A stretch of DNA of 64,000 bases, taken from Chthoniobacterales bacterium (GTDB taxonomy: Bacteria > Verrucomicrobiota > Verrucomicrobiia > Chthoniobacterales > UBA6821). Numbering within the stretch: the first letter of the stretch is position 1; the number at the start of each line of letters is the position of its first letter. The position numbers are program-made. The stretch is from positions 747 to 64,746 of the forward strand of contig JBMOFC010000006.1 in NCBI GenBank assembly GCA_049314455.1. Reading direction: 5' to 3'. Below are positions 27,001-30,000 of the stretch, one piece after another.

Positions 27001-30000
27001 ATAAAACTCTCTGCAACTATCCAGAAACAGAAGTTCATTTTTTAAAAGAATTTATTTCCTTGGAGCAAAATGTGGAGGGGGTTACGGTTCGTGTTTTCAA
27101 CAAAAAGAATCAGCAGCAAGAAATAATTCATGCTCGTTATCTTGTCGCTGCTGATGGGGCTCACAGCCCTATTCGAGAGAAGTTGGGCATTACCATGAAT
27201 GGGCCTGATAACTTAGGAAAATTTTGTAGTGTTTATTGTGGAATGGATCTTTCTCCATGGACGAGAGACCGTCCTGCCATTGGATATTTTTTTACAGATC
27301 TTCGCTTGTCAGGATATTTTCTAGGAGCAGTCAATCTCAGTAATCGATGGATTGTGGGCATGCGTTTTTCCGAAGGGAAATCTCAAGAGACGTTCACGGA
27401 TGAATATTGTCTTCAAGAAACAAGACGGGTCCTGGATCTTCCTGATTTAAAAATTCATCTCATCAACAAAAGTTTTTGGACTATGGCTGCTCAATCTGCA
27501 GAGCGTTATCGTGTTAAAAACATTTTTTTAGCAGGAGATGCTGCTCACCGCTTGCCACCAACAGGGGGATTGGGAATGAATACAGGGATTCAGGATGCCC
27601 ATAATTTGGCATGGAAATTAGCATTTGTATTGAAAGGCCATGCCTCGGAGAAGCTCTTAGATAGCTATGAGGAGGAGCGTGCTCCTGTGGCTGAACAAAA
27701 CATCGCATGGAGTAGAAAGAATGCGACACGCTACAGCGAAATCTTTGAAGCCATTGCAGCAGAAAATAGAGAGGTATTGATTCGTAAACTCCATGAGCAG
27801 CAGAACCATTTTAGCTACGCAGGTCTCGATCTTGGTTTTATCTATCATTCGAGAGCAATCCGTTCTGAAAACGATCAACGTCTTAGCCTCACTCCTTCCA
27901 CCTACCATCCAACAACACTTCCAGGAAGTCGTGCTCCTCATGTTCCGCTACTTCACAATGGGGAACTCATTTCCACGTTAGATCTTTTTGAAAAAGATTT
28001 TATGTTGCTAGTGGGAGCGGAAGGAGCTTCTTGGTTAGAGGCTGCTAGTGAGTTTAAAGAAGAGTCCTCATTTCCACTTAAGGCTTATCGTGTAGCTAGC
28101 ACAACTTCTATTCGAGATGGAGATTTAGTTGATGTCGATCATACTTGGCATAAAACTTATGAAGTCACAACAACTGGTGCTGCTCTCATCCGACCAGATG
28201 GCCATGTGGCCTGGCGTAGTCGCTCATTAGTAGATCACCCCAAAGAAGTTTTAGTGGATTATTTCTCTTGTCTACATAACAGCCTATAACAATCGGCGAG
28301 CAATTGTATGTGAATCAGTAAGTTTAACCCGAATATTTCATACTGAGCGTGACGAGGAAGTCGCGAAGTCTGATGGGGTAAGACAGGCGAGCATTTTGAT
28401 GCCGGGCTGTATGTGTACATACTGCCCAAATCAAAATGTGAGTCTAACGCAGTGTCCATTAGGCTTACCGGCTTCTGCAGTAGATTAGTATGAAATATTC
28501 GGGTTAACCTCGCTTGCCATGACGATAAAGAGCAATAGCCTCTGCTGTTCCTTTTCCAGCGGGATGGAGAGAAATGTGTCCTCCTGCTTCTAGGACTGCT
28601 TCTTTTACCATGGGATGAGCATTGGAAGGACAGGCTAGCATTTTTGCAATGTTGGGATGAAGCATTGAAAGATCATTGTGATGATCTCCGATTGCTAAGA
28701 TGTGATCTGCTTGAATCGATAGTAAGCTGCTTAATGCTTCTAACGTTGTTCCCTTGTTATAGAGGCGATGGTAAAAACTTAAGAAATATTTTTTTTGAGA
28801 ACCACTGCCTTGAAAGAAAAAATCTTTGGGACGCTGTGGTAGCTCCATAAGTTGAGAGGTGATTTCATAAATGACCTCTTCTTCCTCTGAAACGAGGCCA
28901 TCGGGAACACCTAAGTCATCTTTCAAAATAATGATGCTGCCGTGGTAGCTAGAAACAAGAGTCTCTATTTTTTCAAAGAAAAGCCCGCACTGTTCAAAAA
29001 GTTCTTGATGCTGAAGGTCACATCTCTCATTCCAATCACCAAGTGGAGTCCATCCTTTTTGTATATCGTGGTAATAGAGATAGCGCTCTCGCGTAATGAT
29101 ATAATGAGGTTGAATAGGCGATTTGAAGTGCTCGAGTCCTTCAAGCAGGTAAGGTAGAGGCCTTCCTGTATTAATGGACCAAAAAGTTCCATCGCCTTCA
29201 ATTTTTTCTAGCTCTAATGCTAATGAAGCCACACATGCTTCACGTGGGTTTTCTCCAATAAGAGTGCCATCAAAATCAGTGCTTAACAGTTTTATGTTTC
29301 TCATCGTCTTCAAGGGGAGGCCAGTTTATCATAACATGTTCTGCTTATAAACAATTGGATTGCTAGCCCGATTGCCATTAGGAAATATGGCCTTATAGTA
29401 ACTATTCGTGCTAGCTGAACCAAGTTAGTCTGCAACTCATTTTTAAAATATTATGGCAACACTTTGTGTCTATTGTGGCTCTAATTTCGGGAATAGTCCT
29501 CGTTTTTTAGAGGCAGCGCGCTTGGTCGGAAAAATTCTTGCAGAGCAAAATCACACGCTTGTTTATGGAGGGGGCAAAGTTGGCTTGATGGGAATAGTTG
29601 CTGATGAAGCGCTCGCTGCGGGTGGAAAAGTGATTGGAATTATTCCAGAACTTTTTATTCAAGAAGAGCGAGAGATTGCTCATCCAGATCTTACGGAGTT
29701 GTACATTGTCGATTCGATGCATGAGCGCAAACATAAGATGGCCTCTCTCGCTGATGGCTTCTTAGCATTGCCTGGAGGAATAGGCACGCTGGAAGAGATT
29801 CTGGAAGCCTTTACGTGGACGCAGATTGGCATTCACTCTAAGCCGTGCGCCCTTTTGAATGTTGATGGATTTTACAATTCGCTCTTTACTCTGCTCACAG
29901 AAATGAGTGAGAAAGGTTTTTTGATGACGGAACAGCTCTCGCAATTGATTATTGAAGAGGAACCTGAGGCTGCGATTCACAAGGTGCTTTCGCATCAAAC

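What the first reader, a model, noticed from the sequence alone, without database searches (positions are those of the whole stretch)
28324..28507. MITE-like element family (R1) with 22-bp terminal inverted repeats and 4-bp YTAR flanking duplications
Four complete copies share the termini CCCGGATATTTCATACT(R)A ... T(Y)AGTATGAAATATCCGGG. They are 23328-23593 (266 bp), 28324-28507 (184 bp, inverted), 50438-50554 (117 bp) and 50918-51206 (289 bp). There is also a half copy at 48648-48695 and a solo end at 3607-3629. The 4 bp outside the TIRs are CTAG/CTAG, TTAA/TTAA, TTAG/CTAG and TTAA/TTAG; every one fits YTAR, and two pairs are perfect direct repeats. The size classes differ by presence or absence of internal modules, not by their ends. 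No transposase is encoded in the window. A 4-bp YTAR-type target duplication is the known signature of IS5-group transposases, so these look like non-autonomous elements mobilised in trans.
Basis: partly seen in the sequence, partly recalled or inferred. Interest (0 to 1): 0.55.

Follow-up and report, generated by a model that had tools for sequence, protein, structure and literature searches.

The report
IS1380-type miniature transposon family (MITE)
The repeat is a real family of small non-coding mobile elements that duplicate a 4-base YTAR target, but their ends match insertion sequences of the IS1380 family, not IS5, so this is an ordinary kind of element with a corrected parent.

Summary
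All six sites exist at the stated coordinates, and a profile search finds no others in the window. The 17-bp end CCCGGATATTTCATACT occurs 10 times against 0.13 expected by chance.

The family is abundant in three related Chthoniobacterales (Verrucomicrobiota) MAGs, with at least 109 complete copies in about 560 kb fetched. The main form is 176 bp. A 250-290 bp form carries an extra internal module.

Over 320 ends the flank is YTAR in 85%. It is a true 4-bp target duplication: non-palindromic flanks are direct repeats in 14 cases and inverted in none. Two related genomes show clean empty sites with a single YTAR.

The IS5 attribution is not supported. The same ends and the same YTAR duplication bracket about 1.75-kb elements that encode IS1380-family transposases (Pfam PF13701, NCBIfam NF033539). 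One of these carries the exact 17-mer. No transposase was found in the window, so mobilisation in trans is inferred.

Two further points. There are four subfamilies whose two arms co-vary, so each copy still folds into one long hairpin. A quarter of copies sit exactly on a gene's stop codon.

Verdict: a new member of a known kind, of modest interest.

The parts
28324..28507 (+). R1 copy B. This is the canonical 176-bp form (28328-28503), subfamily a/a, flanked by TTAA/TTAA. The right TTAA holds the stop codon of the minus-strand HAD-hydrolase ORF 28504..29313.
   Evidence: nhmmer E 7e-48, full length; ssDNA fold -39.8 kcal/mol, z -7.2
23328..23593 (-). R1 copy A. This is the long form (23332-23589) flanked by CTAG/CTAG. 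An extra GC-rich internal module lies at about 23423-23492. The copy sits among pieces of other small repeats (23217-23330 and 23590-23631).
50438..50554 (-). R1 copy C. This is an internally deleted 109-bp remnant (50442-50550) flanked by TTAG/CTAG. The left TTAG holds the TAG stop codon of the SUMF1-like ORF 49059..50441. A longer copy sits at the same site in relative L124.
50918..51206 (-). R1 copy D. This is the long form (50922-51202) with perfect ends, flanked by TTAA/TTAG. Its internal module lies at about 51007-51083. The cutA-like ORF 50605..50940 runs 7 codons (6 residues, NPDISY, then the stop codon) into the duplication and the terminal repeat.
   Evidence: (I11)
48648..48692 (+). 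A truncated R1 left end. It consists of TTAA plus a degenerate terminal repeat and about 20 bp of subterminal sequence.
   Evidence: D8; E 4.7e-05
3595..3629 (-). A solo R1 end. The exact 17-mer lies at 3609-3625 and is followed by CTAG.
   Evidence: E 0.016

Best explanation
[quoted passage not shown] Each copy is a 176-bp non-coding near-palindrome, or longer when it carries a nested module. It ends in the terminal inverted repeats of a widespread clade of IS1380-family insertion sequences.

The proposed mechanism is as follows. An IS1380-family DDE transposase, encoded elsewhere, binds the CCCGGATATTTCATA... ends. It excises or copies the element and inserts it at a YTAR tetranucleotide with staggered cuts 4 bp apart. 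Repair then duplicates the YTAR.

What is shown here:
- the ends;
- the 4-bp direct duplication;
- the copy number;
- presence/absence at orthologous sites;
- the same ends and the same duplication on IS1380-type elements.

What is inferred:
- that such a transposase moves R1 in trans;
- that one is, or was, present in this genome.

Every YTAR contains TAA or TAG on both strands. Insertion at a gene's stop codon therefore regenerates the stop, which probably explains why many copies abut 3' ends of genes.
For: Abundance:
Most lie in three related MAGs: CAIWMF01, WBXG01 and JAIPKF01.
- There are 378 ends and 129 +/- pairs. Eighty-five copies are about 176 bp and 24 are 195-320 bp (mostly 250-290).
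- Within one MAG, copy pairs reach 98% identity.

Target duplication:
- Flank logo over 320 ends: position -4 is Y (C 125, T 180), -3 is T (293), -2 is A (304), -1 is R (A 162, G 151). Nothing is conserved beyond that.
- In 115 complete copies, 68 flank pairs are identical.
- Non-palindromic pairs are direct repeats 14 times (CTAA/CTAA 10, TTAG/TTAG 3, GTAA/GTAA 1) and inverted 0 times.

Empty sites:
- L089 reads GGC-CTAG-[R1]-CTAG-AGGACG, and its orthologue L056 reads GGC-CTAA-AGGACG.
- L055 is filled and L014 is empty.

Synteny:
- In L125, SUMF1-cutA-ruvB has overlapping genes or a 46-bp gap where the window carries copies C and D.
- L207 lacks R1 after the HAD gene.

Parent element:
- L017 4916-6716 reads CTAG|CCCGGATATTTCATACTGG...CAGGTATGAAATATCCGGG|CTAG. 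It encloses a transposase that matches PF13701 at E 2.7e-97 and NF033539 (IS1380) at 244 bits, above the cutoff of 180.
- L025 has the same geometry.
- Intact 470-495-aa homologues lie in about 1754-bp elements with ends CCCGGATATTTCATAGC and flanks such as TTAG/TTAG and CTAA/CTAA.
- Of 95 transposase loci, 54 have both ends. In 49 of these both flanks are YTAR. Eleven are identical and non-palindromic, against 3 that are inverted.
- A cultured example is the IS1380-family element on Pseudomonas putida plasmid pKF715A, which reads CTAG|CCCGCATTTCTCACAG...|CTAG.
Against: - No IS1380 transposase gene was found in the 64-kb window, and none in about 600 kb of loci from the MITE-rich MAGs. A resident partner is therefore not shown, and the family may now be immobile.
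- Similarity between R1 and the ISs is limited to the 17-20 bp ends. The interior shows no detectable homology, so derivation by internal deletion is not shown.
- All full-length ISs recovered come from contigs with 48-67% G+C, whereas the R1 hosts have about 43%.
- Copy counts include possible orthologous copies in sister MAGs. They are also biased to copies that keep one exact 17-mer end.
Confidence: 0.85

Rival explanations
1. R1 is a MITE mobilised by an IS5-group transposase.
For: IS5 gives 4-bp duplications with the motif YTAR (PMC5009759, read). R1 has exactly that flank.
Against: - Every transposase gene found between R1-type ends is of the IS1380 family.
- The ends start with CCC, as in IS1380-family elements. 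From my own knowledge of the ISfinder family table, which I did not test here, IS5-group ends start with GA/GG.
- An IS5/IS1182-like protein from a fetched locus gave no match in the window.
Confidence: 0.04
2. Only the central TA is duplicated within a YTAR target, as in IS630/Tc1-mariner or IS711-type elements. On this reading the outer bases of the tetranucleotide belong to the element or to the target context.
For: IS711 is reported to duplicate TA within YTAR (PMC2266754). Mixed pairs such as TTAG/CTAG (6 cases) fit this reading without needing a mutation.
Against: CTAA/CTAA (10 cases) and TTAG/TTAG (3 cases) are direct repeats of all four bases. They violate the complementarity that this model requires between the inner flank bases. 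The same holds for the full-length ISs, with 11 direct against 3 inverted. The empty site in L056 holds a single CTAA where L089 has CTAG on both sides of the element.
Confidence: 0.03
3. R1 is primarily a functional structured element, such as an RNA or DNA hairpin acting as a terminator, an mRNA stabiliser or a protein-binding site. On this reading its spread and conservation reflect selection rather than transposition.
For: - The whole element folds into one long hairpin (z -7.2).
- Four subfamilies keep arm complementarity through compensatory changes. In total 76% of cells are paired against 35-47% when partners are slid. Forty-one of 65 pairs show a change on both sides, and 0 of 500 shuffles reach that.
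- Matched arms fold at -81 to -94 kcal/mol. Eleven of the 12 mismatched arm combinations fold at -53 to -74.
- 25% of copies sit on a stop codon against 13% of control YTAR sites.
Against: - Target duplications, empty sites and ends shared with an IS show that it spreads by transposition.
- There is no Rfam match.
- No promoter-like or terminator-like site was found in copy B.
- RNAalifold returned no consensus structure.
- 20% of copies are chimeras with poorer pairing.
- This reading is compatible with the MITE reading as a secondary, exapted role.
Confidence: 0.06

Closest known systems
IS1380-family insertion sequences (PF13701 / NF033539 transposases), for example the element on Pseudomonas putida pKF715A
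   Same: Both have ends that begin with CCCG and continue ...AT.T.TCA. Both have a 4-bp flanking duplication that fits YTAR. One IS copy (L017) carries the identical 17-mer end.
   Different: R1 is 176-290 bp long and has no transposase gene. Its interior is unrelated to the IS interior. R1 lives in genomes of about 43% G+C, whereas the ISs recovered are on contigs of 48-67% G+C.
Prokaryotic MITEs in general (for example Correia, ERIC, and QMITE1/2 of Coxiella, PMC5896051)
   Same: They are small, non-coding and multi-copy. They have terminal inverted repeats and target duplications, fold into a hairpin, lie in intergenic regions or at gene ends, and sometimes alter the 3' ends of ORFs.
   Different: R1 has a different sequence, host and parent family. 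QMITE1 is 300-400 bp with 2-3-nt duplications, and QMITE2 has 7-11-nt duplications. I found no paper that describes an IS1380-derived MITE or a verrucomicrobial MITE.
IS5 and IS5-derived MITEs
   Same: Both make a 4-bp YTAR target duplication (PMC5009759).
   Different: The ends and the associated transposase differ. R1 ends bracket IS1380-type genes, not IS5-type genes.
Eukaryotic piggyBac transposons and their MITEs
   Same: Both have ends that read 5'-CCC...GGG-3'. Both make a 4-bp duplication of a TA-centred palindromic site; TTAA is the commonest R1 flank, at 121 of 320 ends. IS1380 transposases are used as the prokaryotic outgroup of piggyBac (PMC10813416).
   Different: The R1 target is the looser YTAR (TTAA, CTAG, TTAG or CTAA). 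The hosts are bacteria. Homology of this transposase to piggyBac was not recovered here: PDB sequence searches gave nothing, and Foldseek gave only weak RNase-H-like matches.

Membership tests
MITE (non-autonomous DNA transposon) | Short (<~500 bp), with no coding capacity | tested here: met
   Copies are 109-281 bp in the window and the main class is 176 bp. Only short spurious ORFs overlap them.
MITE (non-autonomous DNA transposon) | Terminal inverted repeats | tested here: met
   A 17-bp core is near-invariant at both ends of 320 ends. The arms in the window copies are 88-100% complementary.
MITE (non-autonomous DNA transposon) | Target-site duplication made on insertion, with empty sites in relatives | tested here: met
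   68 of 115 flank pairs are identical. Non-palindromic pairs are direct 14 times and inverted 0 times. Empty sites were found for L089/L056 and L055/L014.
MITE (non-autonomous DNA transposon) | Many dispersed copies per genome | tested here: met
   There are at least 48, 28 and 33 complete copies in partial samples of three MAGs, and 4 complete plus 2 partial copies in the 64-kb window.
MITE (non-autonomous DNA transposon) | An autonomous element with the same ends in the same genome | not tested
   None is present in the window or in the fetched loci of the MITE-rich MAGs.
IS1380-family derivative | Ends match those of elements that encode an IS1380-family transposase | tested here: met
   L017 has the exact 17-mer at one end and 16 of 17 at the other, around a PF13701/NF033539 gene. 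L114-L119 match at 15 of 17. 54 of 95 transposase loci have both CCYG...TCA ends.
IS1380-family derivative | The same duplication length and target as the parent ISs | tested here: met
   49 of 54 ISs have YTAR on both flanks, and 11 identical non-palindromic pairs were found.
IS1380-family derivative | Interior derived from the IS by deletion | tested here: not met
   The subterminal 88 bp score no better than shuffled controls against four ISs. R1 shares only the ends.
IS5-group derivative | 4-bp YTAR duplication | tested here: met
   the IS5 motif is reported in PMC5009759
IS5-group derivative | Ends shared with an element that encodes an IS5-family transposase | tested here: not met
   All transposase genes found between R1-type ends are IS1380-type. 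L041 holds an rve-type IS, but it is nested inside an R1 copy.
IS630/Tc1-mariner or IS711-type (TA duplication) | Only TA is duplicated | tested here: not met
   All four bases are repeated directly in the non-palindromic cases.
piggyBac-like | TTAA-specific 4-bp duplication with CCC...GGG ends | tested here: inconclusive
   The ends are CCC...GGG. TTAA accounts for 38% of flanks and the target is the broader YTAR.
piggyBac-like | Transposase homologous to piggyBac transposase | tested here: inconclusive
REP/BIME elements | 20-40 bp palindromes with GTAG/CGTC heads, no target duplication, associated with RAYT transposases | tested here: not met
   R1 is 176 bp, has ends beginning with CCCGG, and makes a 4-bp duplication.

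The most novel reading that the evidence does not exclude
R1 would be the first described MITE family of the IS1380/piggyBac lineage in bacteria, and its hairpin would be under selection. Four subfamilies have different arm sequences that stay mutually complementary. This suggests that a folded single strand matters, either for transposition (a DNA hairpin or single-stranded intermediate) or for an exapted role at the 3' ends of genes (an RNA hairpin placed right after the regenerated stop codon).
Probability: 0.2. Interest if true: 0.55.

Novelty: new member of a known kind. Interest (0 to 1): 0.35.

Why it matters
- It corrects the family assignment. A YTAR duplication alone does not identify IS5, because a large and widespread IS1380 clade uses the same target.
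- It documents a high-copy MITE family in uncultured freshwater and soil Verrucomicrobia. The family fragments MAG assemblies, expands intergenic regions and rewrites the 3' ends of genes, as with cutA here.
- The IS1380 family is regarded as the bacterial relative of piggyBac. A natural non-autonomous partner with CCC/GGG ends and TTAA/CTAG-type duplications could therefore be a convenient substrate for studying that transposition chemistry in bacteria.
- The co-varying arms offer a test of whether MITE hairpins are selected.

Tried and rejected
- **Coxiella QMITE1/2.** I considered these first because the composition is similar. Their sizes and duplications differ, and the genome hits are verrucomicrobial.
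- **L041.** An rve/IS481-like ORF lies between R1 ends there. nhmmer shows that R1 positions 1-146 and 139-176 flank a 1.4-kb foreign IS, so this is a nested insertion and not an autonomous R1.
- **L104 and L069.** The paired ends there enclose ordinary genes and are unrelated neighbouring copies.
- **Interior homology between R1 and the ISs.** None was found.
- **Rfam.** Nothing at gathering thresholds in the window. E-value mode gave only spurious miRNA-type hairpin hits.
- **RNAalifold on 85 copies.** It returned no consensus structure, so I used per-copy folds and pair counting instead.
- **Promoter and terminator scan of copy B.** Nothing was found.
- **PDB sequence and profile searches with the transposase.** Nothing was found.
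- **Look-up of P0121.** Not on record.
- **NCBI-sourced transposase homologues.** They lie on short metagenome contigs and gave no host information.
- **MAFFT alignment of filled against empty sites.** It handled the large gap poorly, so I replaced it with BLAST of reconstructed empty sites.
- **The FEMS review of IS families.** It is not held in the library. The general IS-family end and duplication features are therefore from my own knowledge.
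Full report

- CTAG|23332-23589|CTAG
- TTAA|28328-28503|TTAA
- TTAG|50442-50550|CTAG
- TTAA|50922-51202|TTAG
- a left-end fragment at 48652-~48692, preceded by TTAA
- a solo end at 3609-3625 (- strand), followed by CTAG

The core CCCGGATATTTCATACT with up to 3 mismatches occurs 10 times against 0.13 expected. 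A profile built from 85 family members finds exactly these six sites in the window and nothing else at E<=1. It also shows that copy 28328-28503 is inverted relative to the other three. The repeat finder recovers the same families and arms.

**Source and spread.** Two flanking proteins are 100% identical to proteins annotated 'MAG... [Chthoniobacterales bacterium]' on a 67,142-bp contig. Most lie in three verrucomicrobial MAGs: CAIWMF01 'Spartobacteria' Kiruna bin, WBXG01 Xiphi-554 and JAIPKF01 Chthoniobacterales Tobar2m-G38. Their genes are 75-94% identical in DNA to window genes.

A 17-mer is expected about 70 times by chance in a collection of that size (my arithmetic). This fits the isolated hits that lack YTAR flanks, in Priestia, Paenibacillus, Thalassobacillus, Elizabethkingia and two uncultured MAGs (WOR-3, Anaerolineales).

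In the fetched DNA I found 378 ends and 129 +/- pairs. Eighty-five copies are about 176 bp and 24 are 195-320 bp (mostly 250-290). There are at least 48, 28 and 33 complete copies in the partial samples of the three MAGs. The finding's copy at 28324-28507 is the canonical 176-bp form and has 80-90% full-length matches in dozens of loci. Copy pairs within one MAG reach 98% identity, so amplification was not only ancient.

**Is YTAR a duplication, part of the inverted repeat, or a TA duplication?** Over 320 ends the four bases outside the core are Y (C 125, T 180), T (293), A (304) and R (A 162, G 151). Nothing is conserved further out. TTAA and CTAG are self-complementary, so only non-palindromic flanks can tell the models apart.

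Among 115 complete copies, 68 have identical flanks. These include CTAA/CTAA 10 times, TTAG/TTAG 3 times and GTAA/GTAA once. The inverted alternative, CTAA/TTAG or TTAG/CTAA, never occurs. This excludes an extension of the inverted repeat. It also argues against a TA-only duplication, which would need the inner flank bases to be complementary.

Reconstructed empty sites match related MAGs across the junction. L089 reads ...AAAAAGGC-CTAG-[R1]-CTAG-AGGACGATC..., and L056 reads ...AAAAAGGC-CTAA-AGGACGATC.... L055 is filled with TTAA and L014 is empty with TTAT.

For the window's own copies the evidence is as follows.

- A relative at 59% protein identity (L125) has SUMF1, cutA and ruvB overlapping or 46 bp apart. 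The window has copies C and D at those positions.
- A closer relative (L124, 86%) has a long R1 copy at exactly the SUMF1 stop codon. The window's 117-bp copy C is therefore an old copy that has lost its interior.
- A 72% orthologue of the HAD gene next to copy B (L207) has no R1 there.

**Parent element.** I looked at paired ends more than 1 kb apart. L017, from a Pedosphaerales MAG, reads CTAG|CCCGGATATTTCATACTGG ... CAGGTATGAAATATCCGGG|CTAG and is 1801 bp long. It encloses an ORF that matches Pfam PF13701 (DDE_Tnp_1_4) at E 2.7e-97. The ORF also matches the NCBIfam equivalog NF033539 'IS1380 family transposase' at 244 bits, above the cutoff of 180. L025 has the same end about 400 bp upstream of a homologous gene start.

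The protein has thousands of 470-495-aa homologues at 72-98% identity. In their contigs the genes lie in about 1754-bp elements with ends CCCGGATATTTCATAGC and flanks such as TTAG/TTAG, CTAA/CTAA and CTAG/CTAG. Tandem copies share one CTAA.

A metagenome scan with a transposase alignment gave 80 more loci. Calling inverted repeats de novo recovers (Y)TA(R)+CCCG... termini in most loci where both ends are on the contig. Of 95 loci, 54 have both ends, with a median element length of 1752 bp. In 49 of these both flanks are YTAR. Eleven have identical non-palindromic flanks, against 3 that are inverted.

The nearest annotated plasmid relatives (48% identity) are labelled 'IS1380 family transposase'. 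The Pseudomonas putida pKF715A copy reads CTAG|CCCGCATTTCTCACAG...CTGTGAGAAATGCGGG|CTAG.

The R1 ends and target are thus those of an IS1380-family clade. YTAR is a correct IS5 signature (PMC5009759), but it is not exclusive to IS5, and nothing IS5-like was found between R1-type ends.

R1 shares only its ends with these ISs. The interior shows no detectable homology. The same ends also border other, unrelated short sequences in other lineages, for example five copies in MAG JANMVS01 and a 35-bp ends-only element in an Omnitrophota MAG. The ends have therefore been captured more than once.

**No partner in view.** tblastn with the IS1380 protein and with four other transposase types finds nothing in the window. 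It also finds no IS1380 gene in about 600 kb from the MITE-rich MAGs. Mobilisation in trans is therefore an inference, and current activity is unknown. The rve-type ORF between R1 ends in L041 belongs to a foreign IS nested in an R1 copy.

**Internal anatomy.** The long copies contain an extra GC-rich module of about 70-100 bp. Its core is GGGCGAG(A/C)CGAGC...GAGCGAGTCAA. It occurs in either orientation and at two different positions within R1. It also occurs outside R1, 10 times out of 29, including window 57560-57700 and 52452-52481.

The 176-bp form falls into four subfamilies: a/a 25, b/b 17, c/c 17 and d/d 9. Seventeen further copies are left/right chimeras.

Each copy folds as one long hairpin. 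For copy B the ssDNA fold is -39.8 kcal/mol, with z -7.2 against shuffles. Matched arms of one subfamily fold at -81 to -94 kcal/mol. Mismatched arm combinations fold at -53 to -74 in 11 of 12 cases; the one exception is left arm a with right arm b, at -91.5.

Counting pairs of copy B's fold across the 85 copies gives 76% paired cells, against 35-47% when partners are slid. Forty-one of 65 pairs show a change on both sides, and 0 of 500 shuffles reach that. The structure was derived from one member and the copies are related, so this is suggestive rather than proof. RNAalifold gave no consensus. There is no Rfam match, and no promoter-like or terminator-like site in copy B.

**Relation to genes.** YTAR contains TAA or TAG on both strands.

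- In the window, the right TTAA of copy B is the stop codon of the HAD hydrolase gene.
- The left TTAG of copy C is the stop codon of the SUMF1-like gene.
- The cutA-like ORF reads NPDISY-stop from the duplication and terminal repeat of copy D, in place of the unrelated tail seen in L125.

Across 115 copies, 29 (25%) have a duplication that is the stop codon of an open frame of at least 100 codons. The figure is 13% for comparable YTAR sites. That control is crude, because it uses open frames and not annotated genes.

**Comparison with known systems.** R1 works like any DDE-transposon MITE, and it meets the defining MITE features that could be tested. I found no description of it, of any IS1380-derived MITE, or of a verrucomicrobial MITE in the searchable literature. 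ISfinder itself could not be consulted.

IS1380 transposases are used as the prokaryotic outgroup of piggyBac (PMC10813416). The CCC...GGG ends and the TA-centred 4-bp duplication echo piggyBac. My own attempts to link the transposase to piggyBac structures were inconclusive.

**Verdict.** The MITE reading is supported. The IS5 attribution is replaced by IS1380. This is a new member of a known kind and of modest interest. Two leads are worth following: the co-varying arms and the placement on stop codons.

Noticed in passing
window 52331-52739 (also 23217-23330 and 23590-23631; L207 3294-3459): More MITE-like families are nested together here. An outer element has the inverted repeat TAGAGCTTTTTAAAAAATTCTGTAG and flanks ATAG/ATAG. 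An inner 165-bp element (52495-52659) has the inverted repeat TATAGTGTGTTAAATCGA. Pieces of these flank R1 copy A. In relative L207, a copy of the inner element sits directly after the HAD gene's TAG stop codon, where the window has R1 copy B.
   Followed up: partly
window 23423-23492, 51007-51083, 52452-52481 (-), 57560-57700: A GC-rich module of about 70-130 bp has the core GGGCGAG(A/C)CGAGC..GAGCGAGTCAA and short hairpins with GAAA/GAAG loops. It is found inside long R1 copies in both orientations and at two insertion points. It is also found inside another repeat and on its own. It has no Rfam match and its nature is unknown.
   Followed up: partly
L092 (CAIWMF010000039, 4.2 kb) against window 1141-33310: This short MAG contig is collinear with eight separate window segments: 1141-1848, 2535-2885, 5066-5166, 6480-7728, 24237-24385, 25149-25570, 28705-28931 and 32831-33310. 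It skips up to 16.5 kb between them. Either the MAG is misassembled or collapsed at repeats, or there are large indels between relatives.
   Followed up: no
window 50605-50940: The cutA-like ORF is 111 aa, against 140 aa in relative L125. Its last six residues and its stop codon (NPDISY*) are encoded by the duplication and terminal repeat of R1 copy D. R1 copy C separates it from the upstream SUMF1-like gene, with which it overlaps in L125.
   Followed up: partly
window 39451-39524: A tandem array of an 11-bp unit, ATAAATTGCCG, with 6.6 copies and 96% matches.
   Followed up: no
window 61333-61632 and 62227-62526 (also 62085-62226 / 62982-63123): An 894-bp tandem duplication inside ORF 61206..63173. 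One 300-nt stretch is 100% identical between units, and a neighbouring stretch is only 78% identical.
   Followed up: no
window 34163-34282 and 58532-58654: Two copies of a repeat of about 120 bp. An 88-nt part is 76% identical and a 30-nt AT-rich part is 97% identical. The repeat contains the palindrome TAAAATTTTT(G/T)ATAAAAAATTTTA. This is another dispersed intergenic repeat.
   Followed up: no
L033, L072, L074, L094, L104 (JANMVS01); L027 1849-1884: The same terminal repeat with YTAR flanks borders unrelated interiors in other lineages. Five copies begin ...CATACTTTGCTCTCCAGCGAAGCCCC in a verrucomicrobial MAG of 62% G+C. A 35-bp element consisting of ends only lies in an Omnitrophota MAG. 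The IS1380-clade ends therefore seem to have given rise to several independent MITE families.
   Followed up: partly
L078 3350-3546, L063 6500-6863, L115/L116: R1 copies, and also full-length ISs, often lie head-to-tail and share a single YTAR between them. This is consistent with re-use of the duplicated target as a new target.
   Followed up: no
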